Sequence record: NC_070874.1
Direction: 5' to 3' (one strand)
DNA: 64,000 bases
DNA from: Escherichia phage vB_EcoP-ZQ2
The notes under the pieces were generated by a model that worked only from the letters and a program-made list of their open reading frames with translations, did no database searches and was not told the DNA's origin. The position numbers and the translations under genes are program-made. The first letter of the stretch is position 1, and every line of letters begins with the position of its first letter. Of the stretch, positions 2,435-34,946 are shown in pieces.

Positions 2435-3145
2435 ATGCAGAAATTATCGGAAGTATATCGTGGCTTAGCACTAAGTACCTTGAAGGGTACTGGTGCAGTC
2501 ACGGATGACAGATTAGGCATTGAGCCAGACAGTAAGCCAGAAATATTGGCTGCTATTAATGAAGGGTTGGTACGATTGCATAGTCGTTTCCCTCTCCGAA
2601 CTAATAGCTGCATTGTGGAGATGAAAGAAGGTCGTACTGACTACCCTCTTCAATCTCGGTATGCTTACTCCCGGTTTACTAAACCTACTCTTGAGATTCA
2701 ATATCCATATATCATGGATGGGTTCATGAAACCTTTCCAGGATGACGTTATTAAAATCTTAAATGTGTTTGATAACTCTGGGAATCGACGTAGACTGAAC
2801 GACGACTCAGACCCTAATGCAATCTTCACCCCAAGACCTGATACTATTCAATGTATGCGACCTCGACACTTCGAGGCACTTAACGTAACTTATCAAGCTA
2901 AGCACCCAGTACTTACGGGTGATGAAGAACAGGAAGTTGACTTAGCAGACACGCTAATGACAGCACTTCATAACTGGGTGGGTTATCGTTACCACACTGG
3001 TTTGAATACTCCGGAAGCTAATGCTAAGGCAGTAGAGTATCTGCAAACGTATGAAAGCATCTGTGGTGAGGTTGTTGATTACGACCTGGCTAATGGAAGT
3101 ATTTCAATTACCGAAACTAAATTTGAACAACGAGGATGGCGATGA
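2435..3145 (+). CDS. hypothetical virion-associated protein (N4 gp67-like position)
   Basis: 236-aa ORF tightly packed between terminase and tail fiber gene. Confidence 0.45.
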   Translation: MQKLSEVYRGLALSTLKGTGAVTDDRLGIEPDSKPEILAAINEGLVRLHSRFPLRTNSCIVEMKEGRTDYPLQSRYAYSRFTKPTLEIQYPYIMDGFMKPFQDDVIKILNVFDNSGNRRRLNDDSDPNAIFTPRPDTIQCMRPRHFEALNVTYQAKHPVLTGDEEQEVDLADTLMTALHNWVGYRYHTGLNTPEANAKAVEYLQTYESICGEVVDYDLANGSISITETKFEQRGWR

Positions 3146-6100
3146 ACGCACATACCCCCTTTGATGCAAATCAGGATTGGTCTAATCCTTACTGTCAGAA
3201 CAGTTCCAATGATCCTATGGTAGATGCACTACTTGGTAATGCTTACCATGTGGTTCGAACTGTTTACTGTAACTTGGGTAACCTGAAACTTATCTATGAC
3301 TTCCTTAACCAGTATGGAATGGTACTTGGTGTACAGTCTGAAGCAGAACTTAAAGCACTAACAACCAAAGCTAAGTATGCACGTATCTATGGATTCTCTC
3401 GTGCAGGTGACCGTCAGGTAACTGACTACCTGTATGTGGAAGGTGATCGTACGGGTATTATTCCAGACGATCCAAAGGCAACCGGTTCGTGGATTACTGT
3501 TGCTACTTCTGGTTCTAATAGTGGTGGTACTTCCTCTGGGGAAGGTGCTTATATTCCTTGGGTATACGACAATGGTTCTGCTGCTGGTGGGGAAACCACA
3601 ATCAACGTACCAGATGGTACGGTAGGTGTACCTTTTATCATTATTAATGGGGATATGCAGTATGTAGGACGTGGCTTTGAATTTAATGCAGATAGCCTGT
3701 CGGTAACTCTGGCTCAACCTCTGGAAGAAGGTGATGAGGTAGTATTCCTTCTGACTGGAGTTCCTGCTGTACCAGATAATCCTAACGTTAATGACTGGGT
3801 TCAGATTAACTGGTTATATAACAATGGTGCTGCTATAGGTGGTGAGCAGGTTATTGCTATCCCTTATACCTTCCAGTCTGTTCCTGCTGTGTATAAGAAT
3901 GGGCTTCGTTTGTATAAAGGATTAGCTACTGAGTCATATACTGCTGACCCGGATAACCAACGTATACTTCTTACAGAACCACTGGCAACCAATGACCGGC
4001 TAATTGTGCAGATTGGTGGTGAAGCACAGGTACTGGAAACAGCAGACCATACCCTTCAGGAAGTTGCTCGTGCTACTAACGTTAAGGATAGTGAGGTAAT
4101 TCTTAGTACAGATACTACCCAGTTCCTGAATAATAAGAAGGTTATTTATTCTGTTAGTGAGCAGAAAGCATATGGATTACCTGTACTACCAACTAACGTA
4201 TTCATTCAGTCTGTAAGCAATGGCAAGTTAATTTACTCACCTGGATCCATTGAAGTAGACCTAATCCCCGTACCCAATTCTGCAGAGAGTTTGGAACAGG
4301 CACTGTCAGCTGAAAATGGTGCATCGTTGATTGTAGATAAACTCCCGTATGCTGGAGCAGTACCAAGAACCCAGCACGATATAAATTCACAATTTAGTAA
4401 TATTCTTGACTTTCTAGGCGATGGGTATGATGGCACTACGGATGCTGCAGGAGCCTTTATCTCTGCCAACACACTCGTTCCGAAAAGTAGAGAGATTGTT
4501 GTTCCAAGTGGGGTGTATCTTCTCAATAGTGACGTGGATTGTTCCGGTCGCCGTTTTACATTTGAGGAGCCTGTGACATTTACTGGTATTGGTAAGTTCT
4601 ACCGGGCTATTGTCAATAGAATTATGCCGGATGGAACAACTCGGGTTTCTCAGTGGGCCAAACCAGGAACTACCGAATATATGACGGCATCTGCTGTTTT
4701 CGGTGACAATGGGGCTACAGCAACTGGCATTCAGATTGGTGGAGCTGTGCCATACAATGGCACAGATGGTGTCATGATGTTTACCGATGGTAGCTCTGGG
4801 TGGTTAGGTGTTCGTGCATCTAAGTGGCCCCACCCTACGGAAATGGCGATATATCCAAGCTCTAAAGCTGGGTCATGTCAGACAATCTCAGGCAGTAATG
4901 CTGTAAAAAGACTGTCGGGTGCTAGCATTACGGCTGAAGCGATTGGGAAACCAATTTCCATCTATGATTCCCTATATACCATATCGACCATAACAGCAGA
5001 TGGTTTTACTGTTAAGAATATTAATGGAACACCCGTTACTTGGGGGTCAACGGCAACTCACTCATTCATTTTATGCTATTACAATGGTAGTGGTTTGTGC
5101 AGCGTATCTGGTACTACTGTGACACGTATTAGTGGCGACCCATTTGTAATTCCTGACCCGACAGTACCACAAACAATGACTATAAACGGTATTGACTACC
5201 GTGTAGTGTCTTTTACAGACCCTCAACATGTTACCCTTAATTCTGCTCCAGGGGATTCAGCGTTAACGGAATATAAATTCTGGGGCACAGTCAATAGCCT
5301 TAACTCTGCTCTTAGGATTCATCGACTCAATGCTGCTGGGTTTGAGGAAAATATTAGTCTCATTGCTAATAATGCTGGCTATTTTGCATTACACGCCGCA
5401 GCTGGTAACCCAGCCAATGAGCAGTATCCAATCTATATTGGGTCAGGTTGGGAAGATAACGGACAGATGCGTAAGAGTATTATCTCTGCAGGTAATGGAG
5501 ATGTAACTCTTGGTGGGGGTTATGGAAATGGGCCGTTATACGTGCCATATAATCAAACATCTGGCCGCCCGCAAGTCATGGTGGATAACAGTACGGGTAC
5601 AGCCACCATTTCGTCTACTGGCGGACCTACTCCGGATGCATCGTTAGCTATTAAAGCTAAGGGTACAGGTAGGGTTGTGTTTCACTCCGAGGTCGGGGTT
5701 AACGCTGCGATATACCCCTACATAGATAACGTTTATTCATGCGGTCAATCCGGGAATAGGTGGTCACAGATATGGGCATCGAACGCCACCATCCAGACTT
5801 CTGATGGGACGACAAAAACTGCAGTTCAAGCATCCGACTTATCTACAGACTTTATTCTTGGTCTAAACCCTGTTTCTTATAAGAACATTGTCGGGGGAAA
5901 TGTTGTAGAAGAGGTTGAAGATGGCGTAGAAGAAATTGAACGACAAGTGGTAGAAAAAGTTACTTCTTCTGAAGAAGTCCATGAACGCGTTGTTGATGGT
6001 GATGAAGTCTACTACGTTCGCAAGTTTGTTAACAAGGAAGTAGAACGACCAGTATTTCATGATGTTGAGCTGCGTGACGAGCTTGGCAATGTCATTGGTA

Positions 6101-6363
6101 CAATCAAAACACCATTGATGGAAAAAGTGGTTGTTCCAAAAACTCGTCAAGTTATTACGCCAGTACCAGGGAAACGGACGCACTATGGATTTATTGCACA
6201 GGAGGTTAAAGACCTCGTAGACGAATTAGGAATTTCCGATTTCGGTGGGTACGTTGAAGGTGAAGATGGTAAACTTGGTCTTCGCTACGGTGAGTTCATC
6301 TCTCCGATAGTGTCTTGCTTGCAGGATATTATCAAGCGACTGGAACTGCTAGAGAAAAAGTAA
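3136..6363 (+). CDS. tail fiber/tailspike protein with C-terminal intramolecular chaperone (peptidase S74-like) domain
   Basis: 1075 aa; C-terminal ...GFIAQEVKDLVDELG...LRYGEFISPIV... resembles the auto-processing chaperone domain of tail fibers and endosialidases; Gly/Ser/Thr-rich repeats. Confidence 0.6.
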   Translation: MAMNAHTPFDANQDWSNPYCQNSSNDPMVDALLGNAYHVVRTVYCNLGNLKLIYDFLNQYGMVLGVQSEAELKALTTKAKYARIYGFSRAGDRQVTDYLYVEGDRTGIIPDDPKATGSWITVATSGSNSGGTSSGEGAYIPWVYDNGSAAGGETTINVPDGTVGVPFIIINGDMQYVGRGFEFNADSLSVTLAQPLEEGDEVVFLLTGVPAVPDNPNVNDWVQINWLYNNGAAIGGEQVIAIPYTFQSVPAVYKNGLRLYKGLATESYTADPDNQRILLTEPLATNDRLIVQIGGEAQVLETADHTLQEVARATNVKDSEVILSTDTTQFLNNKKVIYSVSEQKAYGLPVLPTNVFIQSVSNGKLIYSPGSIEVDLIPVPNSAESLEQALSAENGASLIVDKLPYAGAVPRTQHDINSQFSNILDFLGDGYDGTTDAAGAFISANTLVPKSREIVVPSGVYLLNSDVDCSGRRFTFEEPVTFTGIGKFYRAIVNRIMPDGTTRVSQWAKPGTTEYMTASAVFGDNGATATGIQIGGAVPYNGTDGVMMFTDGSSGWLGVRASKWPHPTEMAIYPSSKAGSCQTISGSNAVKRLSGASITAEAIGKPISIYDSLYTISTITADGFTVKNINGTPVTWGSTATHSFILCYYNGSGLCSVSGTTVTRISGDPFVIPDPTVPQTMTINGIDYRVVSFTDPQHVTLNSAPGDSALTEYKFWGTVNSLNSALRIHRLNAAGFEENISLIANNAGYFALHAAAGNPANEQYPIYIGSGWEDNGQMRKSIISAGNGDVTLGGGYGNGPLYVPYNQTSGRPQVMVDNSTGTATISSTGGPTPDASLAIKAKGTGRVVFHSEVGVNAAIYPYIDNVYSCGQSGNRWSQIWASNATIQTSDGTTKTAVQASDLSTDFILGLNPVSYKNIVGGNVVEEVEDGVEEIERQVVEKVTSSEEVHERVVDGDEVYYVRKFVNKEVERPVFHDVELRDELGNVIGTIKTPLMEKVVVPKTRQVITPVPGKRTHYGFIAQEVKDLVDELGISDFGGYVEGEDGKLGLRYGEFISPIVSCLQDIIKRLELLEKK

Positions 6364-6440
6364 ATAGTTCTAACGCGTCGTTGTGTATGGTTTTATGAAC
6401 CTACTAGACCCAAAGTCTTAATAGCACACAAACCCCTCTT

Positions 6441-6461
6441 CGGAGGGGTTTCCTAGAAAAA
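6441..6461 (+). terminator. hairpin AACCCCTC-TTCG-GAGGGGTT between the two tail fiber genes (weak U-tract; terminator/attenuator or stabilising hairpin)
   Basis: perfect 8-bp stem with UUCG loop, read directly. Confidence 0.4.
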
Positions 6462-6474
6462 CAAAGAGGTTGTT

Positions 6475-8826
6475 ATGAACGAAATGTTCTCACAAGGTGG
6501 TAAAGGCTCCACTGGTATACTTACCAATAAGCAAGCCATTGCCCGTAAGTTTGGTGTTAAGCAGAATGAAGTAGTCTACTTTGCTGTAGGTGTAGACTTA
6601 GGTGGTTACAAAGTAATCTATGATAAGACTACCCAGCGTGCTTACTCATTGCCCGTACTTCCTTCAGGAACCACTGCTGTAAGTCTTAGCAACCAGGCAG
6701 TCCTGGTTCATTCAGCAGGTACAGTTGATTTAGGGGAACTGGCTGCTACATGCAGGGAGTTCGTGAACTTGTCTGACACGTTTGCTACTGGTTTGGTGGT
6801 AAATACTAGAAATGAATTACTATTTCATAATGGTATAGGTTATTCATATTTAGGTTCTCTACCTGTAACTATTACCGCAGGAACTAACCCTGTTGGCAAT
6901 GCAGACTGGAAGCCACAAACTGATCCTAATTTGAGAGAAGATTTATCTTCACCTGACCTAAATAAGGGAGCTTCTCTTGTTACTTTCCACTACTTAGGCG
7001 ATACGGTGGAAAGCACATTAGGTAACATTCAATCAGTACCTTTTGAGCATTTCGGCGGCGGAACCTCAAAAACTGGGGAAGAAAACACCGCTGCTTTGAA
7101 AGCGGCTATCTCTTCACAGTTTAAGCACATTTGGTTTAATAACGGTCCCTATACTTTCTCTGGGGATACTAATTTTACTGGAATCAATGGTAAAATTTTT
7201 GAGTCTAATACAAACGCTGCTTTTGTTTTCTCAGGTTTATTTTTTAACTTCAAATCTCCAGTGGACACCGAGTTCAGGGGGATCACGTTCAGTGCTCCTC
7301 CTACCAATACGGTGTTAAACTCCGTGACTCTTAGTAACTTCACTAATATTAAATTTACTAAGTGTAAGTTTCTTGGTTTTGGGGGAGACACTACAAATAC
7401 CGCAGGTAGTGCAGCACTCATACTTTATGCTGGTGATTCCGAGACGGCCCAGTATGCTGCTGGTAGTTCTACTGGTGCTGTTCTTGATGGGTGCTATTTT
7501 GACGGCCTTCGCGACCGTTTGTGTAACTTCGCGGTTAGGGTCTACACAGAATTTACTGTGCCGACTGCATCTATTGCAACTAATTCCAATAATAAAATCA
7601 TTAACTGTGATTTTGTCGGGCATAACTGGAACGCAGTTGAAATAGCCGGGCCTAGTACCCACAGCAACATTGTTAGTAACTGTTCAGCTACTAACCCAGG
7701 ACTGTGCCCATTTGACCTGGATAAAGGGACGCACGATAACATCGTAGAAAATATTACGATACGTAATTTGAAAGGAGACCTTGGCGTAAGTGGGTTCACC
7801 CGCGCGTCGGCTGTCAACATTCAGGGTGCCACTGCTGACACCTACTTTGCATACAATAACACCGTTAGAAATGTAACATGTGTCACAACTAAGGATAATA
7901 TCGACGCGTATAACGCCACCGGTTTTGGTTCCGGGTTCGCTGCTGTTAGTCTGGCATACTGCTACAACAACTTTGTAGATAATGTCACTATGACATGTAA
8001 CGGTGGTGTTCCGACCAAACCATCAAATGGCACAATGGCATTCTGTCATCTCACGTTTGAATCTATATCCGGGTGTACCGTTAATCGGGTGTCTACGGTT
8101 AACGCGTCTCATGGCATATTAATGACTTCATTCAAAAGTCAATCTATGTCGGCACTTAACGAGCCAAATCATTTTTCCACGTTCCGTAACTCTGGGGCCA
8201 ACCTAGAAGGTGAAATATTTTACGGGTATGCTACCGCAGCGGGTAGTCCATTGAAGATTATCCTCAATGACATAGACCTAACTACATCTGGTGCTCAAAG
8301 TAACCTTACGTACAACGGACACAAATATGCAATTGTGTACCGCACAGCTGGAAGCTCTGTTAACTATTTAAGGATTGAGGAAAGCCGCATCGGATTAGCT
8401 ACTGATTCTAATCTCTGGTTTGCTATGTGCACAGGGCCGCAAATTGGTTTGCGAGAGGTGCAAATCCACGATGGCAACGGTACAGCGAATGTTAATAGTC
8501 GTTTTATGGAATCCAATGGTTTGTCATTAATAACAAATATTGCTATCGATAACGTATATGGGGATCTAGAGAGAAAACCTATCCAGATACAGACGGCGTT
8601 AGCCGGGCTGACGGGTGGTACGTTTAAACTTGTTGGTGGGATTTCGGATAGTGGGTTACCACAATCTAGACCTGTTACGTTATTCGCCAATTCAGCAACC
8701 ACATTCCCATCAGCTGCTCAGTTTGATACGAATATAATCTTACGTCGTACATCGGCTACTACGGGCCAAGCGTGGGGATGGATTAGCACAGGAACAGCGT
8801 GGGCAGCGTTAGGCTCACTGACGTAG
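6475..8826 (+). CDS. tailspike / receptor-binding protein, probable right-handed beta-helix
   Basis: 783 aa; repetitive N/T/G/V-rich beta-solenoid-like sequence (NIVSNC, NIVENITIRN); position after first fiber gene. Confidence 0.5.
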   Translation: MNEMFSQGGKGSTGILTNKQAIARKFGVKQNEVVYFAVGVDLGGYKVIYDKTTQRAYSLPVLPSGTTAVSLSNQAVLVHSAGTVDLGELAATCREFVNLSDTFATGLVVNTRNELLFHNGIGYSYLGSLPVTITAGTNPVGNADWKPQTDPNLREDLSSPDLNKGASLVTFHYLGDTVESTLGNIQSVPFEHFGGGTSKTGEENTAALKAAISSQFKHIWFNNGPYTFSGDTNFTGINGKIFESNTNAAFVFSGLFFNFKSPVDTEFRGITFSAPPTNTVLNSVTLSNFTNIKFTKCKFLGFGGDTTNTAGSAALILYAGDSETAQYAAGSSTGAVLDGCYFDGLRDRLCNFAVRVYTEFTVPTASIATNSNNKIINCDFVGHNWNAVEIAGPSTHSNIVSNCSATNPGLCPFDLDKGTHDNIVENITIRNLKGDLGVSGFTRASAVNIQGATADTYFAYNNTVRNVTCVTTKDNIDAYNATGFGSGFAAVSLAYCYNNFVDNVTMTCNGGVPTKPSNGTMAFCHLTFESISGCTVNRVSTVNASHGILMTSFKSQSMSALNEPNHFSTFRNSGANLEGEIFYGYATAAGSPLKIILNDIDLTTSGAQSNLTYNGHKYAIVYRTAGSSVNYLRIEESRIGLATDSNLWFAMCTGPQIGLREVQIHDGNGTANVNSRFMESNGLSLITNIAIDNVYGDLERKPIQIQTALAGLTGGTFKLVGGISDSGLPQSRPVTLFANSATTFPSAAQFDTNIILRRTSATTGQAWGWISTGTAWAALGSLT

Positions 8827-8834
8827 TAAAATAA

Positions 8835-8858
8835 AAGGCCCATTTGGGCCTTTTCTTA
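8835..8858 (+). terminator. rho-independent terminator
   Basis: AAAGGCCC-ATTT-GGGCCTTT hairpin followed by T-run, 9 nt after tailspike stop. Confidence 0.65.
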
Positions 8859-9071
8859 TATAGAGTTTACTGTTTGCATTACCCTAACTGATACTGCTGT
8901 TAGGGTAATTACTTGCCCAAAGATATTAAGCATACCTAGCTGAATACCATCCCCCATGTATTGATGCCAGACACTATGTCTGGATGTACCCCAACATACT
9001 AAGTATTATCTAAGAGTCATCTTATGATATGGCCCTATTGGGAATTCTAACTACACAACTACGGTAATATT

Positions 9072-9401: not shown

Positions 9402-9646
9402 AAAGAAAAGTAGAGTTAGTACCTAACTGGAAAAGATGCTGGAAATGGGCATCCATTCAGATTAGTACACTCGGGTTAATTATGTTTTCTGCCATAGATA
9501 TCATTCAACCAATGCTGACAGGATTACCTCGTCACATCCTAGAAGATATTCCCCATGGTTCCAATATTGCAATCGCACTGTTTGCCTTAAGCATCGTAGG
9601 CAGATTAATACGATTCCGTCCGAAGGAAGATTCACATGAAAGCTAA
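9386..9646 (+). CDS. putative holin (two TMD, pinholin-like)
   Basis: 86 aa from internal ATG of ORF 9320..9646; two hydrophobic helices; directly upstream of and overlapping the endolysin start. Confidence 0.45.
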   Translation: MVRRLKRKVELVPNWKRCWKWASIQISTLGLIMFSAIDIIQPMLTGLPRHILEDIPHGSNIAIALFALSIVGRLIRFRPKEDSHES

Positions 9647-10271
9647 ACAGAAACTTGCTGCGAAAGGTGGTGCAGTGGGAGGGGTTGTCGCTGCTATCCT
9701 GGGGGCAGTGTTCTATATGGAAGGGGGATATGTAAACAATCCTCGTGACCCAGGTGGTGAAACCAATCATGGCATTACCCAGGCAGTAGCTAAATCTCAC
9801 AAAGAAGTTCTGGCTACTGAATACGGCTGGGATGGTTCTATGAAAGGTTTATCTAAAGAGATGGCTGCTGAGATATACATTGATGACTACGTACTTAAGC
9901 CTAACTTCGTAGCTTTCGCTGATATATCTCCTGCTGTAACTCATAAGCTGATAGATGCTGGTGTTAACACTGGTGTAACTCGTCCAGCTAAGTGGTTGCA
10001 GTTATCTCTTAATGAAATGTCCCGTGATGGCAAAGACTACCCTAAAATACAGGTTGATGGTAAAGTCGGTACAAGCACTGTTAATGCATATAAAGCATTA
10101 CAGAAAAAACGAGGCAAAGTTGCAGCATGTCAGGTAATGATTAAATTACTAGATGCTAAACAACTAAACCACTACACCTCATTAAACATGCCAGACTTTA
10201 CATATGGTTGGGTAGCTAACCGAATAGGCAATGTGCCACTGGAGGCGTGTAATGAAGATGCTAATCTCTAA
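9636..10271 (+). CDS. endolysin, GH108-type N-acetylmuramidase with N-terminal signal-anchor (SAR-like) region
   Basis: EGGYVNNPRDPGGETNHGIT motif typical of GH108; Gly/Ala-rich weakly hydrophobic N-terminus. Confidence 0.7.
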   Translation: MKAKQKLAAKGGAVGGVVAAILGAVFYMEGGYVNNPRDPGGETNHGITQAVAKSHKEVLATEYGWDGSMKGLSKEMAAEIYIDDYVLKPNFVAFADISPAVTHKLIDAGVNTGVTRPAKWLQLSLNEMSRDGKDYPKIQVDGKVGTSTVNAYKALQKKRGKVAACQVMIKLLDAKQLNHYTSLNMPDFTYGWVANRIGNVPLEACNEDANL

Positions 10272-10758
10272 AGGTTGGCCTTATCTTCTGGTGGTGGTCC
10301 TGGGGGCCACCATTTACTTTTGGGGTAATTCCAATGGACAGTCTACTGTTCAAAAGAAGTGGGATGCCCAAAAGGTTGAAGACCAAAAGGCAACACAAAA
10401 ATTACAGGACAAATACAATGCTCTCCAAAGAAACCATAGTTATGAAGTCGGGTTACTCACTTCCCGGTTGCAGACGGCTGAGAGTAATTACGCAAGCGAG
10501 CTTGCTCGCGTTAGCAGTGATTATGACAGCCGGATGCAACAGTCTGAAAGACGAGCATCGGTATATAAACGTCAAGCCGAAGCCGGAACCTTTGAGTGCA
10601 GAAGTCTTGCAAGCCATGCAGCCAGACTCGACAACAGTCTTGAAGAAGGCAGACGTTTGGTTGAAGAACTCAGGGCAACTGTTAGACTCCGTGACAGCCA
10701 ACTAATTGAGTTGGGTAAACAGATTCAGGCTGACCGTAAACTTTTTGAACAGGAATAA
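10231..10758 (+). CDS. i-spanin (Rz-like)
   Basis: 175 aa; N-terminal TMD then charged coiled-coil region; overlaps endolysin end. Confidence 0.6.
10418..10705 (+). CDS. o-spanin (Rz1-like lipoprotein) embedded in +1 frame within Rz
   Basis: signal peptide ...[12 protein letters not shown] with lipobox-like Cys, proline-rich mature part; fully embedded in 10231..10758; start codon uncertain (10418 or 10442). Confidence 0.5.
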   Translation: MLSKETIVMKSGYSLPGCRRLRVITQASLLALAVIMTAGCNSLKDEHRYINVKPKPEPLSAEVLQAMQPDSTTVLKKADVWLKNSGQLLDSVTAN

Positions 10759-10760
10759 CT

Positions 10761-13031
10761 ATGGAACACCAAGACACTTTTAAGCCTTTACCAGACCCGG
10801 CTCAATCAGAGAAGTTAACGGACTGGAAAAAGGAACCAAGTATCCAATTACTGAAAGGTGATTTGGAATCAGCCAAACCTGCTCACGATGCAATCATGGC
10901 TCAGATTCGTGAGTGGAATGACTTAATGGAAGTCAAAGGCAAGGCTAAACCCCCAAAGGTTAAAGGACGTTCACAAGTCCAACCTAGACTGGTTCGCCGT
11001 CAGGCAGAATGGCGTTATGCACCATTATCCGAACCATTCCTCTCATCCAATAAACTCTTTAAAGTAACCCCTGTTACTTTTGAAGATGAGTTAGCTGCAC
11101 GTCAGAATGAACTAGTTCTTAACTACCAATTCCGTACTCAGCTTAATAAAGTAAAACTAGTAGACGATTACGTTCACAGTGTCGTAGATGATGGTACTGG
11201 TATTGCTCGCATTGGTTGGGAACGTAAGACTGTTAAGATTAAAACAGAAACACCAGTCTTCCAGTTGTATCCAATTGAGAACCAGGAACAAGCAGATATT
11301 CTTCAACGGGCTTTGCAGCTTCAGGCAGAGAATCCTCGTGAGTATGATGAAACAATGCCTGAAGATATTAAGGAAGCTGTTAACTACTTCAATGAAACTG
11401 GAGAAGCTACCTATGCAATCCAGACTGGAGTTACTGAAGTAGAGGTAGAGAAAGCACTGGTTAACAGACCTACTGTTGAAATGCTTAATCCCAATAACGT
11501 AGTTATTGACCCAAGCTGTAATGGAGACTTGGACAAGGCTCTGTATGCAGTTATCTCATTTGAGACTTGCAAAGCAGACCTAATGAAGAACAAGGACCGT
11601 TACCACAACCTGGATAAGATTGACTGGGAAAGTTCTAGTCCTATGACTGACCCAGACCATGAAAGTAAAACTCCTGGTGATTTCCAGTTTAAGGATGCAC
11701 TTCGTAAGAAAGTAGTTGCTTATGAATACTGGGGATTTTATGACATTAACGATGATGGTTCACTGGAACCAATTGTTGCTACCTGGATTGGTTCTACTCT
11801 TATCCGTATGGAGAAGAACCCATTCCCGGATGGTAAGTTACCTCTGGTAGTTGTTCCTTACATGCCACGTAAACGTGAACTCTTTGGTGAGGCTGATGCC
11901 GAACTGTTAGGAGATAACCAAGCAATTCTTGGTGCAACTATGCGTGGGATGATTGACCTGTTGGGTCGAAGTGCAAATGGTCAACGAGGGTATCCTAAAG
12001 GGATGTTAGATACTCTGAACCGACGTCGATATGATGATGGACAAGACTATGAATACAACCCAATGCAAGGCAATCCTAGTCAGGCCATTATGGAACATAA
12101 GTTCCCTGAGTTACCTCAGTCGGCAATAATAATGACTCAGATGCAAAACCAGGAAGCAGAAGCACTAACTGGTGTTAAAGCATTTTCTGGTGGTGTAACT
12201 GGTGCAGCTTACGGAGATGTGGCTGCTGGTATTCGTGGTGCACTTGATGCAGCATCCAAACGTGAGATGGCAATCCTTCGTCGATTAGCTAAGGGTATGG
12301 CAGACATTGGTACTAAGATTTGTGCAATGAATGCTGTGTTCTTATCAGAAAAGGAAGTAGTACGTATTACTAATGAGCAGTATGTAGAAATTAACCGTGA
12401 AGACCTTAAAGGTAATTTCGACATTGAGGTTGATATTAACACTGCTGAAATTGATAACCAGAAGTCCCAAGACTTGAGCTTCATGGTTCAAACATTAGGT
12501 AATACAGTTGACCAGACTATTACGTTATCTCTTGTAGCTAAGATTGCAGAACTTAAACGTATGCCTGACCTTGCTCATGAATTACGTACCTGGAAACCAC
12601 AGCCAGACCCTATGGAAGAACAGCTTAAGCAATTAGCAATTCAGAAAGCACAGCTTGAGAATGAAGAGTTGAAAAGTAAAATTGCACTCAATAATGCTAA
12701 GGCTAAAGAAGCTATTTCTAGTGGTGACCTTAAAGACCTGGATTATCTGGAACAGGAATCTGGTACTAAACATGCTCGTGATATGGAAAAACAAAAAGCA
12801 CAATCTCAAGGAAACCAGAACCTTCAAATAACTAAGGCGTTGACAACACCTACTAAAGAAGGTGAAACTACCCCCAACATATCTGCTGCTGTCGGATATA
12901 ACGCTTTGACTAACGGGAACTCTTTACAGGAACGTGACTTAGCTGCACAGCAAGACCCGACTTATTCACTTAGTTCCCAGTATTATGACCCTAGCCAAGA
13001 CCCAGCATCGGCTCTTGGTATGAACTTATAA
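10761..13031 (+). CDS. portal protein (N4 gp59-like)
   Basis: 756 aa, position between lysis cassette and scaffold/capsid genes. Confidence 0.65.
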
Positions 13032-13044
13032 GGCAGACCTTCAC

Positions 13045-13389
13045 ATGAGTAAAGAATCAACAATCGCAGGACTGGAACATCGACTTGAAGCTGCTAAAGG
13101 TGCAGTTGCACACGCAGAAGATGTACGTAAACTTCTGGAGAATCCACTGTTCCGTAAAGTAATCCTTCGCCAGTTCTGTGTAGAAGATTGTGCACGTTAC
13201 GTGCAGGAGTCTGGTGACCCACTGCTTGAACCGAATAACCGTGCAGATGCACTGAACATGGCACAAGCTGCTGGTCACTTACGTCGTTGGCTCGACCTCG
13301 CCATTCGTATGGGTGAGAATGAAGCTGACGTTATTCTTCAGGTAGAAGAAGAACTCGATGCAGTTCGTGCTGAGCCTGAAGACGAATAA
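13045..13389 (+). CDS. hypothetical protein
   Basis: 114-aa ORF in head-morphogenesis block. Confidence 0.45.
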   Translation: MSKESTIAGLEHRLEAAKGAVAHAEDVRKLLENPLFRKVILRQFCVEDCARYVQESGDPLLEPNNRADALNMAQAAGHLRRWLDLAIRMGENEADVILQVEEELDAVRAEPEDE

Positions 13390-13408
13390 TTAACCGGAGA
13401 TATTTCCT

Positions 13409-14629
13409 ATGACTACGGAAGCTGCAACCACAGCTTCCGACATTCTCGCAATGTCGGATGATGAGATTCTGAATATGGAAGCCCCAGCAATTATTGCTGA
13501 GGAAGATACTTCCACTCAGAACAACCCAGAAACCAACGGCGTACAGACTCCTGATGAAGAAGTTGACACCTCTGCTGTTGAAGACCTACCAACCGAAGAA
13601 ACCTTCCCTGAAACTGAGCCAGTTGAAGATGATTCAGCAAATTCTTTAACTTCTGATAAAGTTGATGATAAAGTTGTTGACACAGAAGTTGATAGTAACG
13701 GTAAGCCGATTACTGAAGCTGAACCTTCTACTGCTGAACCAGGCCAGGAACAGAAAGAAGAAGGCAAACAGTCTGAAGGTCTGCCTGCTGACTTCAACTA
13801 TAAGGAAGGTTATGAGAAGTTGATGGCTCCTTTTAAAGCTAACGGCAAAATGATTACTCCCCGTTCACCGGAGGAGGCCATTAGCCTGATGCAGATGGGT
13901 GCTAACTATACTCGTAAGATGCAAGAACTACAGCCGTACCGTAAGGTAATGCTGATGCTACAGAACAACGGTTTAATGGATGAGGAAAAACTTTCTTTCC
14001 TGATTGACCTGGATAAGAAGAATCCTGAAGCCATTAAAAAGTTGTTGAAAGACTCTGGTACAGATCCTCTGGACTTTAATCCTGATGAGGAAATTAACTA
14101 CCAGGGTGGCAAACACCGTGTTACAGACACCGAAGCAGATTTTGCAACCGAAATTGACGACTTAAAGTCTACTCAAGAAGGACAAGCTACATTAGGTGTT
14201 ATTAGCTCGACATGGGATGCTGCCAGTAAAGATGCTCTTTATCAGAATCGTGGCTTACTCCACACCATTCACGAACAACGTGAGAATGGTATTTATGACA
14301 CCATTGCTAATGAAGTGAATCGTCTTCAGGTGTTAGGTCAGATTCCGGTAGGTACTCCGTTTATTCAGGCTTATAACTACGTTGGTAACCTCCTTGCACA
14401 ACAGGGAGCATTTAACCAAGTGGCTAAGCCTGAACCAGTACAAGCAGTTAAACCAGCTGTTCAGCCGGTAGTGCGTGTAGCACGGCCTAAGCAGACTCTG
14501 GCTAACAGTGAGCAAGCTAAAGCAGCTTCCCTTAATCGGGCTGCTACACGTAAAGCTACACCTATTGTAAACCCACTCGCTATGAGTGACGAAGATTTCG
14601 CTAAACTCCCAGTACCGGGTAGTCTTTAA
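13409..14629 (+). CDS. putative scaffolding protein
   Basis: 406 aa, highly acidic low-complexity N-terminus, immediately upstream of major capsid gene. Confidence 0.45.
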   Translation: MTTEAATTASDILAMSDDEILNMEAPAIIAEEDTSTQNNPETNGVQTPDEEVDTSAVEDLPTEETFPETEPVEDDSANSLTSDKVDDKVVDTEVDSNGKPITEAEPSTAEPGQEQKEEGKQSEGLPADFNYKEGYEKLMAPFKANGKMITPRSPEEAISLMQMGANYTRKMQELQPYRKVMLMLQNNGLMDEEKLSFLIDLDKKNPEAIKKLLKDSGTDPLDFNPDEEINYQGGKHRVTDTEADFATEIDDLKSTQEGQATLGVISSTWDAASKDALYQNRGLLHTIHEQRENGIYDTIANEVNRLQVLGQIPVGTPFIQAYNYVGNLLAQQGAFNQVAKPEPVQAVKPAVQPVVRVARPKQTLANSEQAKAASLNRAATRKATPIVNPLAMSDEDFAKLPVPGSL

Positions 14630-14645
14630 ACAGGAATGAGATGAT

Positions 14646-15848
14646 ATGTTAAACTATAACGCTCCAATTGACGGTCAGAAATCTAGCATTGATGGTGCTG
14701 GTTCCGACCAGATGAATACCTATTACTGGCTGAAGAAGGCTATTATTCAGTCCCGTAAAGACCAGTATTTCATGCCTCTGGCTAACACTGTTAACATGCC
14801 GAAGAACTACGGTAAGACTGTTAAGGTGTATGAGTACGTTCCTCTGCTCGACGATAAGAACATTAATGACCAGGGTATTGATGCTAATGGTGCTACCATC
14901 GTTAACGGTAACCTGTATGGTTCTTCCAAAGACGTTGGTAACATTACTTCTAAACTGCCTCTGCTGTCAGAGAACGGTGGTCGTGTTAACCGTGTAGGCT
15001 TTACTCGTCTGGCTCGTGAAGGTTCTATTCATAAGTTCGGTTTCTTCTACGAATTTACCCAAGAGTCTCTGGACTTTGATTCTGATGACCAACTGAAAGA
15101 ACACCTGTCTCGTGAACTGATGAACGGTGCTGTACAGTTGACTGAAGCTGTTCTCCAGAAAGACCTGCTGGCTGCTGCTGGTACTGTACTGTATGCAGGT
15201 GCTGCTGTCTCTGATGCTACCATTACTGGTGAAGGTTCTACCCCGTCTGTAGTTTCTTATAAGAACCTGATGCGTCTTGACCAGATTCTTACTGAGAACC
15301 GTACCCCGACCCAGACTACTATCATCACTGGTTCTAAACTGACAGATACCAAAGTACTTGGTGGTACTCGTGTAATGTACGTTGGTTCTGAACTGGTTCC
15401 AGAACTGAAAGCGATGAAAGACCTGTTCGGTAACAAAGCATTCATCGAAGTTCAGCACTATGCTGATGCTGGTACTCTGATGAATGGTGAAATTGGTTGT
15501 ATTGATAAGTTCCGTATTATCCAGGTTCCAGAGATGCTGCATTGGGCAGGTGCTGGTGCTCAGGTTGGCACTAACCCAGGCTATCGTTCTTCTATGGTTG
15601 GTGGTCAGGAACACTACGACGTATTCCCGATGCTGGTAGTTGGTGATGATTCCTTCTCTACCATTGGTTTCCAGACTGATGGTAAGTCTGTTAAGTTCAC
15701 CATCATGACTAAGATGCCGGGTAAAGAAACTGCTGACCGTAATGACCCGTATGGTGAAACTGGTTTCAGTTCTATCAAGTGGTACTATGGTATTCTGGTT
15801 AAACGCCCAGAACGTCTGGCTCTGATTAAGACTGTTGCTCCTCTGTAA
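14646..15848 (+). CDS. major capsid protein (N4 gp56-like)
   Basis: 400 aa; strong codon bias typical of a highly expressed gene; followed by hairpin; position after portal/scaffold. Confidence 0.7.
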
Positions 15849-15865
15849 TAGTCCGAAATAAAACA

Positions 15866-15888
15866 AGGGGGACATAAGTCCCCCTCTT
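15866..15888 (+). terminator. hairpin terminator after capsid gene
   Basis: AGGGGGAC-ATAA-GTCCCCCT, weak U-tract. Confidence 0.45.
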
Positions 15889-15915
15889 AATAAAACTAAA
15901 TGAACCACAGGAAAT

Positions 15916-16554
15916 ATGAACATGAGCATTAACGATAAACCGACCACTGACGTAGAAGTGAACGTACAGGGCAACGAAGATACCGTTAACGATATTGCAA
16001 TGCCTAGCGAACTTGAAGTTCTTAAGCAACGTGCAACGTTGATGAATATCAAGTTCTCTAACAACATTTCCGTTGAGAAGCTTCGTGAGAAGATTGAAGC
16101 TGCACAAGTAAAAGATGAACCAGTAGTAGAAGCTGCTGTTAACCCACTGGGTGCTAATCAGGAAGCAGGTGTTAAGAAGATGACCCTGGGTCAGAAGATT
16201 CGTGCAGAACAGACTCGACTGATTCGTGTACGTATCCAGAACCTTGACCCTAAGAAGAAAGATCTGCCGGGTGAGATTATCACCGTAGCTAACGAATATA
16301 TGGGTACTGTACGTAAGTTTGTCCCGTTCGGTGAAGTAACCGACAATGGCTATCATATTCCGTACTGTATCTACGAGTTCCTTAAAGAGCGTAAGTTCAT
16401 CAACATTACGACTCGTAAAGGTAAGAATGGCTTACCGGACATCCGTGCAACAGAAGCACGTGAGTTCTCCATTGAAGTACTGCCTCCGTTGACTGAAGCT
16501 GAATTAGCTCAACTGGCTCAAGCACAGATTGCTGCTGGTAGCCTTAACGATTAA
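15916..16554 (+). CDS. virion structural protein (N4 gp55-like position)
   Basis: 212-aa ORF. Confidence 0.45.
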   Translation: MNMSINDKPTTDVEVNVQGNEDTVNDIAMPSELEVLKQRATLMNIKFSNNISVEKLREKIEAAQVKDEPVVEAAVNPLGANQEAGVKKMTLGQKIRAEQTRLIRVRIQNLDPKKKDLPGEIITVANEYMGTVRKFVPFGEVTDNGYHIPYCIYEFLKERKFINITTRKGKNGLPDIRATEAREFSIEVLPPLTEAELAQLAQAQIAAGSLND

Positions 16555-16624
16555 CGTATAAGCTACAGTTCAACACGGCTCACTGGGGTAACTCCGTGGG
16601 CCGTTTCTTTTTGAACCGAGAGGA

Positions 16625-17467
16625 ATGATTATGTCTTGTTCTGCTGAGGTAGAAGCTAACCGACTCCTAGAAGAGTTAACTAAGGGTGATGACTTTACCC
16701 TTCCTGATATTGATATGTCCGGCCCTGAATGGGATATCCCAGGTGGAGATGGTTCCCCAATCTTTGGTGCTATTACTAAGATAACCAATGAATCTCTTAC
16801 TACCCGTGAAGTAGGTGGTAGTGGTACGTTTGATGCATTAATGGAATCTGCACATAATCACCTTAAAGCTGAGTTTAAGGCTAACCGTATTACAGGTGGT
16901 GAATATACCAAAGCGTATATTGCTATGATGGAATCATGCATGAGTAATGCTGTTCAGTTCTTACTTGGTCGTGACCAGGCATACTGGGCTGCTGCACTGG
17001 CACAGATTCAAGCAGTTACTGCTCGTGTTCAATTGGCAACTACTAAAGCTCAGTTTGTACTGGCTAAGATTCAGGCACTGTCTGCTAAGAGTGAATACGC
17101 TCTTACTAAGATGAAGATTGCTACTGAATCTGAGACATATTGTGCTGCATTGTTTAACGTTAATCAGATGTTACCTCAACAGCTTAAGCTGATTACTGAG
17201 CAAACCGAATCACAACGTGCACAGACACTGGATACTCGTACTGATGGTGCAGTAGTTAAGGGTTCTGTTGGTAAACAGAAAGAACTGTACTCTCAACAGA
17301 TTACTTCTTATCAACGTGATGCAGAAGTTAAAGCATCTAAGCTGTTTACTGATGCATGGATTACTCAGAAAACTATTGATGAAGGCTTGAATCCACCAAA
17401 TGGTTTCACTAACGCAAGTATTGATACCATTCTGTCCAAGCTGAAGTCTAACAACGGGCTGAACTAA
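16625..17467 (+). CDS. virion structural protein (N4 gp54-like position)
   Basis: 280-aa ORF, alpha-helical/coiled-coil rich. Confidence 0.45.
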
Positions 17468-17468
17468 T

Positions 17469-20123: not shown

Positions 20124-20136
20124 CAGGAGAATCCCC

Positions 20137-20580
20137 ATGGATTTATCATTTTTAACAGGCAACCAAACTCCACAGCCAGCTGCTATGTCTTGGATGTCTA
20201 ATAACAATCAGAACTTTAATACCCCGGCTATGAACTATAACCCTGGTGCAGCTATTGGTATGGGTACGAATTTGGGTACATCTGCCCCTACTTCTTTCAT
20301 GTCTGGTTCAGCTAATCAGTTGGGTCTGAACGTACCAACCTTCCAATTAGGACTGGGTGCACTTGGTTCATTAGCTAATATCTATAGTGGTTTCCAGGCT
20401 AATAAGTTAGCCAAAGACCAGTTGAACTTTACTAAGAGTGTTACTAACACTAACCTGAATAATCAGATTAAGTCTTATAACACTGCACTAGAAGACCGTG
20501 CTCGTAGCCGTGCTGTTGCAGAAAACCGTGACCAGTCTTCAGCTGATGCTTACATTGCAGCTAACAAATTAACCCGTTAA
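20137..20580 (+). CDS. hypothetical virion protein
   Basis: 147-aa ORF. Confidence 0.45.
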   Translation: MDLSFLTGNQTPQPAAMSWMSNNNQNFNTPAMNYNPGAAIGMGTNLGTSAPTSFMSGSANQLGLNVPTFQLGLGALGSLANIYSGFQANKLAKDQLNFTKSVTNTNLNNQIKSYNTALEDRARSRAVAENRDQSSADAYIAANKLTR

Positions 20581-20592
20581 TAGGAAACCATC

Positions 20593-22539: not shown

Positions 22540-22556
22540 AATCTTACATACTAATA

Positions 22557-22580
22557 AAGCCCCATCCGGGGCTTTTCTCT
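22557..22580 (+). terminator. rho-independent terminator
   Basis: AAAGCCCC-ATCC-GGGGCTTT plus T-run. Confidence 0.6.
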
Positions 22581-22624
22581 TACATTCACTTACTGTACAG
22601 TGAATCTTCTTATACGATATAAGT

Positions 22625-34645: not shown

Positions 34646-34872
34646 TAGTAGCTTTAACGCAGCTAACGAGGCTAGGCCAGTTAACTATTACCACCGGTGC
34701 TTGTACCAGCAAACAGGATTGATAGTCCGATAATAGATAACTGTATTTGAGCATTATAGTCTACTCATACTCACACCGATAGGTATGTTTTCAATAGCTA
34801 GAGTGCCGGACTGTCTCACCGGCATTGTCTTTAGAGTGCAATGCAATCAGGACTATGTTCTCTATTAATGAG

Positions 34873-34946
34873 TACCCACTACTGGATTTGAACCAGTGAC
34901 TTTCCAATTATTAGTTGGTTGCTTTCCCCGTCTAAGCTAAGTGGGC
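34873..34946 (-). tRNA. tRNA, 74 nt, anticodon read as AAU (Ile-type, atypical A34)
   Basis: hand-folded cloverleaf: acceptor GCCCACT/AGTGGGT (one G-U), D-stem GCTT/AAGC, anticodon stem CCAA/TTGG with loop CTAATAA, T-stem ACTGG/CCAGT with loop TTCAAAT, discriminator A. Confidence 0.6.

What the first reader, a model, noticed from the sequence alone, without database searches (positions are those of the whole stretch)
3136..8826. Two large receptor-binding proteins: S74-chaperone tail fiber plus beta-helix-like tailspike
The 1075-aa protein ends with an intramolecular chaperone-like domain that is usually auto-cleaved after trimerisation. The adjacent 783-aa protein has solenoid-like repeats, suggesting a polysaccharide-degrading tailspike. 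A dual-adhesin arrangement determines host range.
Basis: partly seen in the sequence, partly recalled or inferred. Interest (0 to 1): 0.4.

Follow-up and report, generated by a model that had tools for sequence, protein, structure and literature searches.

The report
Branched two-protein phage host-recognition module
These two genes encode the host-recognition proteins of an N4-like (G7C-type) E. coli phage, a virion-anchored fibre with a self-cleaving chaperone tail that probably carries a beta-helix tailspike as a side branch; both are already annotated in a public phage genome, so the finding is correct but ordinary.

Summary
Both ORFs exist exactly as stated: 3136-6363 (1075 aa) and 6475-8826 (783 aa). 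They are 100% identical to the adjacent 'tail protein' and 'tail spike protein' of Escherichia phage vB_EcoP-ZQ2, a Gamaleyavirus (G7C-like, N4-like podophage).

ORF1 is a gp66-type primary receptor-binding protein.
- Residues 1-391 match Moo19 gp82 and B2 gp49. They hold the virion anchor and the T4 gp10-like branching domains.
- Residues ~412-888 are a swapped receptor-binding module.

ORF2 is a gp63.1-type secondary tailspike.
- Residues 1-165 match G7C gp63.1, CBA120 TSP1 and B2 gp48.
- Residues ~186-700 are predicted as a right-handed beta-helix resembling phage depolymerase tailspikes.

The main refinement is that the two proteins most likely form one branched complex, with ORF2 docked on ORF1, rather than acting as two independent adhesins. 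Each C-terminal module is a mobile cassette bounded by hairpins.

Enzymatic activity, receptor identity and auto-cleavage are inferred, not shown. ORF2's beta-helix module is rare and uncharacterised, which is the only mildly new element.

The parts
3136..6363 (+). ORF1, 1075 aa: gp66-type primary receptor-binding protein (fibre/spike)
   Evidence: The ORF is listed. It is 1073/1073 identical to QWY13162.1, the 'tail protein' of phage vB_EcoP-ZQ2. PHROG 12242 'tail protein' scores E 1e-288.
3136..3375 (+). ORF1 aa 1-80: N-terminal virion-anchor region
   Evidence: Residues 3-79 match residues 1-73 of PDB 9lc0, the N4-type '60 kDa protein' (E 3.5e-5). They also match PHROG 29955 'appendage'. 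The anchor role is inferred from the G7C/CBA120 literature.
3550..4332 (+). ORF1 aa 139-399: T4 gp10-like XD2/XD3 branching domains plus neck; probable docking site for ORF2
   Evidence: This region matches residues 18-264 of CBA120 TSP2 (6w4q, E 6e-30). The whole of residues 1-391 matches Moo19 gp82 (9d80, E 1.6e-156) and B2 gp49 (9d83/9d84, E 6e-140), all. G7C gp63.1 binding requires gp66 XD3. B2 gp48/gp49 was co-purified and solved as a complex.
4369..5799 (+). ORF1 aa 412-888: exchangeable receptor-binding module (beta-helix-type cap, small beta-barrels, endosialidase/T5 pb1-like stalk)
5800..6360 (+). ORF1 aa 889-1075: Peptidase S74 / intramolecular chaperone domain, with predicted cleavage before Ser889 (codon 5800-5802) and Lys894 (codon 5815-5817)
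6430..6451 (+). Intergenic GC-rich hairpin (AAACCCCUC-UUCG-GAGGGGUUU) at the 3' border of the ORF1 cassette
   Evidence: The fold has an energy of -14.8 kcal/mol and a z-score of -3.6. Identity to EC1-UPM and to metagenomic Gamaleyavirus contigs resumes at 6430-6433. A terminator-like stem-loop between g66 and g63.1 is described for G7C-like phages.
6475..8826 (+). ORF2, 783 aa: gp63.1-type secondary tailspike
   Evidence: The ORF is listed. It is 780/780 identical to QWY13163.1, the 'tail spike protein' of phage vB_EcoP-ZQ2. PHROG 7992 'tail spike protein' scores E 2e-73.
6475..6969 (+). ORF2 aa 1-165: conserved N-terminal docking domains
   Evidence: This region matches G7C gp63.1 (4qnl, E 6e-54), CBA120 TSP1 (4oj5, E 6e-53) and B2 gp48 (9d84, E 1e-50). 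The DNA is 86.5% identical to EC1-UPM only up to window 6933.
7030..8574 (+). ORF2 aa 186-700: predicted right-handed parallel beta-helix (probable glycan-binding/depolymerase module), with the conserved motif NWNAVEIAGP...PFDLDKGTHD at aa 384-421 (7624-7737)
   Evidence: The AlphaFold model has core pLDDT of about 80-97. Foldseek matches CBA120 TSP3/TSP1/TSP4, RbmB lyase, Det7, HK620 and K5A lyase. The family profile hits beta-helix enzymes in the PDB, and 14 of 31 family members hit PF12708. Conserved polar residues are listed.
8575..8823 (+). ORF2 aa 701-783: C-terminal region of unresolved fold
   Evidence: pLDDT is below 50 for residues 728-783. The region is conserved within the small family, with W776 nearly invariant.
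8833..8854 (.). Hairpin with flanking A/T runs just after the ORF2 stop codon (terminator-like, at the 3' border of the ORF2 cassette)
   Evidence: It is found by the terminator scan. The fold has an energy of about -14 kcal/mol and a z-score of -3.6. Identity to EC1-UPM resumes at 8835.

Best explanation
The region is the host-recognition module of a Gamaleyavirus (G7C-like, N4-like podophage), identical to that of Escherichia phage vB_EcoP-ZQ2.

ORF1 is the gp66-type primary receptor-binding protein. It is expected to act as a homotrimer built from the following parts:
- The first ~80 residues anchor it to the tail.
- The T4 gp10-like XD2/XD3 domains (aa ~139-300) and the neck provide a branching platform.
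- Residues ~412-888 form an exchangeable receptor-binding module.
- Residues 889-1075 form an S74 intramolecular chaperone. It is expected to drive trimer folding of the preceding stalk and then cut itself off before Ser889, using the Ser889/Lys894 dyad.

ORF2 is the gp63.1-type secondary tailspike. Its N-terminal ~165 residues dock onto the XD3 region of ORF1. Residues ~186-700 form a right-handed beta-helix that binds, and probably cleaves, a surface polysaccharide (O-antigen or capsule) of the host. Glu389 and Asp416 (with Asp414) are the candidate catalytic residues.

Each virion appendage would therefore carry two different receptor-binding heads. Each head is an independently swappable cassette.

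Shown here:
- homology of every conserved part
- the S74 motif and fold
- the predicted beta-helix fold
- the cassette borders

Inferred:
- trimerisation
- the ORF1-ORF2 contact
- auto-cleavage
- enzymatic activity
- the receptors
For: Context:
- Window 10000-30000 is 94% nt-identical to Gamaleyaviruses St11Ph5 and EC1-UPM.
- A 3611-aa vRNAP-sized ORF is present.
- The gene order TerL, adaptor-like protein, ORF1, ORF2, lysis genes, portal equals that of EC1-UPM.

ORF1:
- Residues 1-391 match Moo19 gp82 (9d80, E 1.6e-156) and B2 gp49 (E 6e-140). Residues 139-399 match CBA120 TSP2 XD2/XD3.

ORF2:
- Residues 1-165 match G7C gp63.1, CBA120 TSP1 and B2 gp48.

Literature:
- G7C gp66 and gp63.1 form a stable two-branched complex that requires gp66 XD3.
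- B2 gp48/gp49 was co-purified and solved as a complex.
- C-terminal modules are swapped among G7C-like phages while the N-termini are conserved.

S74 domain.

Beta-helix.

Independent shuffling:
- A metagenomic Gamaleyavirus carries a 97%-identical ORF2 next to a different 974-aa gp66 allele.
- The ORF1 module occurs in Kuravirus phages.
- The ORF2 module occurs at 74% aa identity in a siphovirus-like contig, behind a different N-terminus.

Conserved acidic residues in the ORF2 family: E389, D414 and D416.
Against: - No experiment on these proteins was found. Papers that name ZQ2 mention it only once.
- ORF2 itself hits no Pfam or NCBIfam family.
- The ORF2 model rests on a 6-sequence alignment, with mean pLDDT 65.6.
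- The top Foldseek hits to CBA120 TSPs partly reflect the shared N-terminal sequence.
- The ORF1 C-terminal model is a monomer with pTM 0.40, and its central fold is unresolved.
- The Pfam S74 match covers only 21 residues.
- A catalytic pair cannot be assigned without a trimer model or a ligand. G7C gp63.1 shows that such spikes can be esterases rather than depolymerases.
Confidence: 0.85

Rival explanations
1. The proteins are two independent adhesins. Each attaches directly to the tail and acts separately, which is the plain reading of 'dual-adhesin arrangement'.
For: Both proteins have conserved N-termini and variable C-termini, as direct tail-binding spikes do. In Moo19 a gp66-like protein and a tailspike occupy different positions on the tail.
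Against: The N-terminus of ORF2 is homologous to gp63.1, TSP1 and B2 gp48, which attach to a partner spike and not to the tail. ORF2 lacks the anchor region that ORF1 shares with the N4-type appendage protein. ORF1 retains the XD3 domain that gp63.1 needs for docking in G7C.
Confidence: 0.08
2. ORF2 is a beta-helix that only binds its glycan, or that modifies it (for example as an esterase), without depolymerising it. The module that actually degrades polysaccharide, if there is one, is the beta-helix-capped module of ORF1.
For: ORF2 matches no catalytic Pfam family. G7C gp63.1 is a deacetylase, not a depolymerase. The ORF1 module begins like the Sf6 endorhamnosidase cap, and several relatives hit PF12708.
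Against: ORF2 has no SGNH or esterase domain. Its family keeps invariant E389, D416 and K417 on neighbouring predicted rungs, the usual arrangement in tailspike glycosidases and lyases. Its closest folds are depolymerising spikes and lyases. The ORF1 model shows only a few beta-helix rungs before it changes to beta-barrels.
Confidence: 0.2
3. The S74 domain of ORF1 is a degenerate remnant that is not cleaved and stays on the mature fibre.
For: Pfam aligns only the last 21 positions of the 58-position model, and the domain carries a long charged insertion (aa ~918-1010). Single-sequence matches of aa 860-1075 to solved chaperones are weak, with E of 0.2-0.3.
Confidence: 0.08

Closest known systems
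Phage G7C gp66 + gp63.1 branched tailspike complex (Prokhorov et al. 2017, Mol Microbiol 105:385; cited)
   Same: - Same genus-level genome backbone and the same gene order.
- The ORF2 N-terminus matches gp63.1 directly (4qnl, E 6e-54).
- The ORF1 N-terminus has the same anchor, XD2 and XD3 layout.
- N-termini are conserved and C-termini are swappable.
- A hairpin lies between the two genes.
   Different: Both receptor-binding modules differ. G7C gp63.1 carries an SGNH esterase, whereas ORF2 carries a beta-helix with no esterase domain. The ORF1 C-terminal module, with its S74 end, is shared with Kuravirus phages rather than with G7C (one search shows no G7C-type match beyond aa ~370).
Shigella phage B2 gp49/gp48 complex and Moo19 gp82 (PDB 9d83/9d84, 9d80/9d81; Sci Adv 2024, PMC11654681)
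   Same: ORF1 residues 17-380 match B2 gp49 (E 6e-140) and residues 1-391 match Moo19 gp82 (E 1.6e-156). ORF2 residues 1-159 match B2 gp48 (E 1e-50). The solved gp48/gp49 complex is the structural precedent for ORF2 docking on ORF1.
   Different: B2 gp49 is only the 410-aa adaptor part and has no receptor-binding head of its own. ORF1 continues for another ~680 residues. The Moo19 and B2 spikes are esterases.
CBA120 (Kuttervirus) TSP1-TSP4 branched tailspike complex
   Same: The XD2/XD3 domains of ORF1 match TSP2 (6w4q). The ORF2 N-terminus matches TSP1, TSP3 and TSP4 (4oj5, 5w6f, 5w6h). The ORF2 beta-helix model is closest to TSP3 and TSP1.
   Different: CBA120 is a myovirus with four spikes. 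This phage is a podovirus with two. Sequence identity outside the N-terminal domains is below 20%.
Endosialidase (K1F endoNF, phi92) and T5 pb1 C-terminal intramolecular chaperone domains (Peptidase S74; PDB 3gw6, 4hiz, 4uw8, 3gud)
   Different: ORF1 has no sialidase beta-propeller. PF12219 is only sub-threshold, over the stalk. The chaperone domain is 187 aa long and has a long acidic hairpin insertion.

Membership tests
Peptidase S74 / C-terminal intramolecular chaperone domain (ORF1 aa 889-1075) | Match to Pfam PF13884 above the gathering score | tested here: met
   The score is 27.4 bits against a cut-off of 22 (E 4e-6), but only profile positions 37-57 of 58 align, at aa 1012-1032. It is 28.6 bits on the C-terminal fragment.
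Peptidase S74 / C-terminal intramolecular chaperone domain (ORF1 aa 889-1075) | Catalytic Ser and a Lys five residues downstream, at the stalk/chaperone junction | tested here: met
   S889 and K894 lie in IQT-SDGTTK. Ser is present in 34 of 44 homologues and Lys in 33 of 44. The motif aligns with the endoNF, T5 pb1 and phi92 junctions.
Peptidase S74 / C-terminal intramolecular chaperone domain (ORF1 aa 889-1075) | Chaperone-domain fold | tested here: met
Peptidase S74 / C-terminal intramolecular chaperone domain (ORF1 aa 889-1075) | Autoproteolytic release after trimerisation | not testable with these tools
   This needs SDS-PAGE or mass spectrometry of virions or recombinant protein, together with an S889A mutant.
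G7C gp66-type primary (branching) receptor-binding protein (ORF1) | N-terminal anchor followed by T4 gp10-like XD2 and XD3 domains | tested here: met
   Residues 1-391 match 9d80 (E 1.6e-156) and 9d83 (E 6e-140). Residues 139-399 match residues 18-264 of 6w4q. Residues 3-79 match 9lc0.
G7C gp66-type primary (branching) receptor-binding protein (ORF1) | Encoded next to a gp63.1-type spike in an N4-like late operon | tested here: met
   The gene order is the same as in EC1-UPM and in metagenomic Gamaleyavirus contigs.
G7C gp66-type primary (branching) receptor-binding protein (ORF1) | Physical binding of the secondary spike through XD3 | not testable with these tools
   Only precedents are available: G7C deletion mutants and the B2 gp48/gp49 complex.
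gp63.1 / CBA120 TSP1-type secondary tailspike (ORF2) | Conserved N-terminal docking domains | tested here: met
   Residues 1-165 match 4qnl (E 6e-54), 4oj5 (E 6e-53) and 9d84 gp48 (E 1e-50).
gp63.1 / CBA120 TSP1-type secondary tailspike (ORF2) | Match to Pfam PF18668 (Tail_spike_N) | tested here: not met
   ORF2 or its first 200 residues hit no Pfam family, even at E up to 10. Many more distant relatives do carry PF18668. The direct matches to solved structures outweigh this.
Right-handed parallel beta-helix (pectate-lyase-like) phage depolymerase tailspikes (ORF2 aa ~186-700) | Beta-helix fold | tested here: met
   The AlphaFold core has pLDDT of about 80-97. Foldseek gives Det7 6f7k at rmsd 4.3-5.4 over about 450 columns, RbmB lyase at TMt 0.55-0.59, and HK620, K5A lyase, phi29 gp12 and APK16 depolymerase, all at probability 1.00. 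This is a prediction from a shallow alignment.
Right-handed parallel beta-helix (pectate-lyase-like) phage depolymerase tailspikes (ORF2 aa ~186-700) | Sequence match to the Pfam beta-helix families PF12708 or PF13229 | tested here: inconclusive
   ORF2 itself has no hit. Of 31 family members, 14 hit PF12708 and 1 hits PF13229. The family profile hits beta-1,3-glucanase, TSP3, phi29 gp12 and mannuronan epimerases in the PDB, but only over the N-terminal cap.
Right-handed parallel beta-helix (pectate-lyase-like) phage depolymerase tailspikes (ORF2 aa ~186-700) | Catalytic acidic or basic residues in the groove, and polysaccharide-cleaving activity | not testable with these tools
   The candidates E389, D414, D416, K417, R348 and R355 are conserved. 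Their geometry and activity were not testable.

The most novel reading that the evidence does not exclude
The beta-helix module of ORF2 (aa ~171-783) may represent an uncharacterised family of phage depolymerases with a glycan specificity not yet described.
- It has no Pfam or NCBIfam hit of its own.
- It has no tblastn match in 50,697 phage records and no DNA match in 5,426 complete E. coli genomes.
- Only about 54 cluster representatives exist among 1.84 billion proteins.
- It carries an invariant NWNAVEIAGP...PFDLDKG signature.

The receptor-binding part of ORF1 may likewise be an atypical composite (beta-helix cap, beta-barrels, pb1-like tip) rather than a standard spike or fibre.
Probability: 0.4. 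Interest if true: 0.3.

Novelty: already known. Interest (0 to 1): 0.15.

Why it matters
Receptor-binding proteins set phage host range. They are also the parts that are swapped when phages are engineered or chosen for therapy and typing.

This locus is a clean example of the G7C-type branched design, with the cassette borders mapped. It pairs an S74-chaperoned module shared with Kuravirus phages and a rare beta-helix module shared with siphovirus-like contigs.

It adds no new principle. Its practical value is as a source of two uncharacterised specificities and as a guide to where modules can be exchanged.

Tried and rejected
- **Phage collection, ORF2 module.** A tblastn of ORF2 aa 171-783 against the phage collection found no match. 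This reflects both the rarity of the module and the absence of the source record (ZQ2) from that collection.
- **E. coli genomes.** Distant blastn of both C-terminal modules against 5,426 complete E. coli genomes found nothing. A recent E. coli prophage origin at the DNA level is therefore not supported.
- **Family libraries.** ORF2 gave no hit in Pfam at E up to 10 or in NCBIfam, and NCBIfam also gave nothing for ORF1.
- **Internal repeats.** Self-BLAST found none in either protein. 'Solenoid repeats' are visible only at the fold level.
- **Literature.** Searching for the PDB codes gave only irrelevant papers. Searching for ZQ2 gave no functional study.
Full report
**Observation**

Both ORFs lie in a co-directional block:
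- terminase large subunit, 824-2428
- a 236-aa adaptor-like structural protein, 2435-3145
- ORF1 and ORF2
- endolysin, 9636-10271
- Rz-like spanin, 10231-10758
- portal, 10761-13031

**What genome this is**

Window 10000-30000 is 94% nt-identical over its full length to Gamaleyaviruses St11Ph5 and EC1-UPM. The window also carries a 3611-aa ORF of virion-RNA-polymerase size. The genome is therefore a G7C-like, N4-like podophage (Schitoviridae, Enquatrovirinae; taxonomy line).

ORF1 from its third codon is 1073/1073 identical to QWY13162.1 / YP_010659964.1, the 'tail protein' of Escherichia phage vB_EcoP-ZQ2. UniRef names it 'Peptidase S74 domain-containing protein'. ORF2 from its fourth codon is 780/780 identical to the neighbouring QWY13163.1 / YP_010659965.1, 'tail spike protein'.

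The window is therefore ZQ2 or an identical phage. That record is simply absent from the 'phages' collection, where no record covers 80% or more of the region. No paper in the library studies these proteins; ZQ2 is mentioned once in each of two papers.

The longer starts seen here, MAMNAH... and MNEMFSQ..., agree with the N-termini of the solved homologues Moo19 gp82, G7C gp63.1 and CBA120 TSP1. ORF2's ATG is preceded by AAGAGG.

**ORF1, conserved N-terminal third**

- Residues 1-391 match Shigella phage Moo19 gp82 (PDB 9d80, E 1.6e-156).
- Residues 17-380 match phage B2 gp49 (9d83/9d84, E 6e-140).
- Residues 139-399 match CBA120 TSP2 (6w4q), that is, the T4 gp10-like XD2/XD3 domains.
- Residues 3-79 match the N4-type '60 kDa protein' (9lc0) and PHROG 'appendage'.

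These results are; the PDB entries were identified through the Sci Adv 2024 paper.

In G7C the homologous gp66 attaches to the virion, and its XD3 domain is required to bind gp63.1. In B2 the 44-kDa gp49, which consists of this N-terminal module only, was co-purified and solved in complex with the spike gp48.

**ORF1, C-terminal two thirds**

Identity to other Gamaleyaviruses stops at window 4244 (aa ~369). From 4369 to the stop codon, the DNA is 83% identical to the tail protein of Kuravirus phage 1-6af, which belongs to a different subfamily, Gordonclarkvirinae.

The same module occurs behind other N-termini at about 50% aa identity in Pantoea, Lelliottia and E. coli proteins.

A profile of 44 homologues gives two kinds of hit:
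- The Sf6 tailspike cap matches at the start of the module. For ORF1 this corresponds to aa ~395-490, by sequence correspondence.
- T5 pb1, 7y5s, endoNF 3gw6 and GA-1 3gud match at the end.

The AlphaFold model of aa 381-1075 has mean pLDDT 69.9 and pTM 0.40. In order along the chain it shows:
- a few beta-helix-type rungs
- a confident beta-rich part at model residues 200-380 (pLDDT 80-94)
- an extended, low-confidence stalk
- the chaperone domain

The fold of the central part, and whether it is enzymatic, remain open.

**S74 domain**

Pfam PF13884 is above its cut-off (27.4 bits against 22), but it aligns only aa 1012-1032 because the domain is interrupted by a long charged insertion.

The junction PYIDNVYSCGQSGNRWSQIWASNATIQT|SDGTTK aligns with three known junctions:
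- T5 pb1, ...TINTADARLK
- endoNF, ...IVTANGERK (alanine at the position aligned with ORF1 Ser889)
- the mature C-terminus of the phi92 endosialidase, ...GTINT

From my own knowledge of these entries, the alanines in the T5 pb1 and endoNF chains are Ser-to-Ala mutations of the catalytic serine.

Ser889 and Lys894 are conserved in 34 and 33 of 44 homologues. The homologues that lack them lack the whole domain.

The mature protein is therefore predicted to be residues 1-888. Cleavage itself is inferred from established knowledge of the family.

**ORF2**

Residues 1-165 match G7C gp63.1 (4qnl, E 6e-54), CBA120 TSP1 (4oj5) and B2 gp48 (9d84). DNA identity to EC1-UPM runs only from 6430 to 6933 (aa ~153) and resumes at 8835.

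The remainder, aa 171-783, is rare:
- It has no Pfam or NCBIfam hit.
- It has no tblastn match in 50,697 phage records.
- It has no DNA match in complete E. coli genomes.
- It has five homologous clusters in the 5.8-billion-protein set, at 97, 94, 74, 36 and 34% identity.
- It has 54 representatives at E up to 1e-3 among 1.84 billion proteins.

Of 31 family members, 14 hit PF12708 (pectate-lyase-like). Members carry varied phage N-termini, including Tail_spike_N, the T7 fibre N-terminus and the tail-collar domain.

The AlphaFold model was built from six sequences and has mean pLDDT 65.6. The N-terminal 106 residues are unmodelled because only two sequences share them. The core at residues 186-700 has pLDDT of mostly 80-97 and is a regular stack of short strands.

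Foldseek returns 74 PDB matches at E up to 1e-3. Nearly all are right-handed beta-helix spikes or enzymes: CBA120 TSP3/TSP1/TSP4, RbmB lyase, Det7, HK620, K5A lyase, phi29 gp12 and Acinetobacter depolymerases.

Conserved polar residues across the family are K260, R348, R355, W385, N386, E389, D414, D416, K417, N462 and E580. E389 and D416 are 27 residues apart, about one rung. This spacing is typical of tailspike glycosidase pairs, but their assignment as catalytic residues is an inference.

**Cassettes and borders**

The ORF1 variable cassette is 4245-6430 and the ORF2 variable cassette is 6934-8834. Each ends at a stable hairpin:
- 6430-6451, with a UUCG loop, -14.8 kcal/mol and z -3.6
- 8833-8854, about -14 kcal/mol and z -3.6

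The first hairpin corresponds to the terminator-like stem-loop that Babenko et al. noted between g66 and g63.1 and proposed as a recombination landmark.

The cassettes shuffle independently:
- A metagenomic Gamaleyavirus has a 97%-identical ORF2 next to a different 974-aa gp66 allele with a Beta_helix Pfam hit.
- A siphovirus-like 43-kb contig carries the ORF2 module at 74% aa identity behind another N-terminus.

**Mechanism**

The best-supported picture is a branched appendage. Trimeric ORF1 is anchored to the tail. Its XD3/neck region carries trimeric ORF2. Both distal heads engage host surface glycans.

The S74 domain assists folding of the ORF1 stalk and is then released. ORF2 probably binds and processively cleaves O-antigen or capsule, as described for Alt63 gp63.1 (a depolymerase). 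G7C gp63.1 is instead an esterase.

The main rivals have low support:
- independent attachment of the two proteins
- a binding-only ORF2
- an uncleaved S74 remnant

**Verdict**

The feature is a textbook G7C-type host-recognition module, and the exact proteins are already annotated in RefSeq with the same labels.

The only mildly new points are the rarity and lack of characterisation of the ORF2 beta-helix family, and the composite, unresolved architecture of the ORF1 receptor-binding part.

Interest is low.

Noticed in passing
window 34872-34946 (-): A single phage-encoded tRNA-Ile was found, with the unusual anticodon AAT. It lies at the switch between the rightward and leftward gene blocks.
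   Followed up: no
window 8878-8909 and 8967-8983: Two perfect inverted repeats lie in the ~220-nt non-coding gap between the ORF2 terminator and the next ORF (9072): 11 nt arms with a 10-nt spacer (ATTACCCTAAC/GTTAGGGTAAT), and 7 nt arms with a 3-nt spacer (CCAGACA/TGTCTGG). Their function is unknown; they may be regulatory or promoter-associated hairpins upstream of the lysis genes.
   Followed up: partly
window 3136-3145 and 6475-6486: The public ZQ2 annotation starts ORF1 at Met3 and ORF2 at Met4. The longer starts match the N-termini of solved homologues (MGMNSH... in Moo19 gp82, MNEMFSQ... in gp63.1 and TSP1), and ORF2's first ATG has an AAGAGG ribosome-binding site. The ORF1 start overlaps the upstream gene by 10 nt.
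   Followed up: partly
window 4057-4257 vs 6532-6732 (ORF1 aa 308-374 vs ORF2 aa 20-86): The neck region of ORF1 after XD3 is 38% identical to the N-terminal domain of ORF2 (E 4.5e-8). This is an internal paralogy between the two spikes, consistent with the shared 'TSP1/Gp66 N-terminal' domain family.
   Followed up: no
window 22625-33460 (+): A giant 3611-aa ORF of virion RNA polymerase size, the hallmark of N4-like phages. It is listed with a TTG start, so the true start may lie downstream.
   Followed up: no
window 2435-3145 (+): The 236-aa protein just upstream of ORF1 scores just under the Pfam cut-off for SU10_adaptor (26.7 bits against 27) and matches PHROG 2125 'virion structural protein'. 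Its position and size resemble those of the 27-kDa tail adaptor gp50 of phage B2, which lies next to gp49. It may be the tail component to which ORF1 attaches.
   Followed up: no
L004 3022-5946 (metagenomic Gamaleyavirus contig ERZ27235511 k119_26536): A sister phage carries the same ORF2 allele (97%) but a different 974-aa gp66 allele with a Pfam Beta_helix hit. This shows that the two heads recombine independently.
   Followed up: partly
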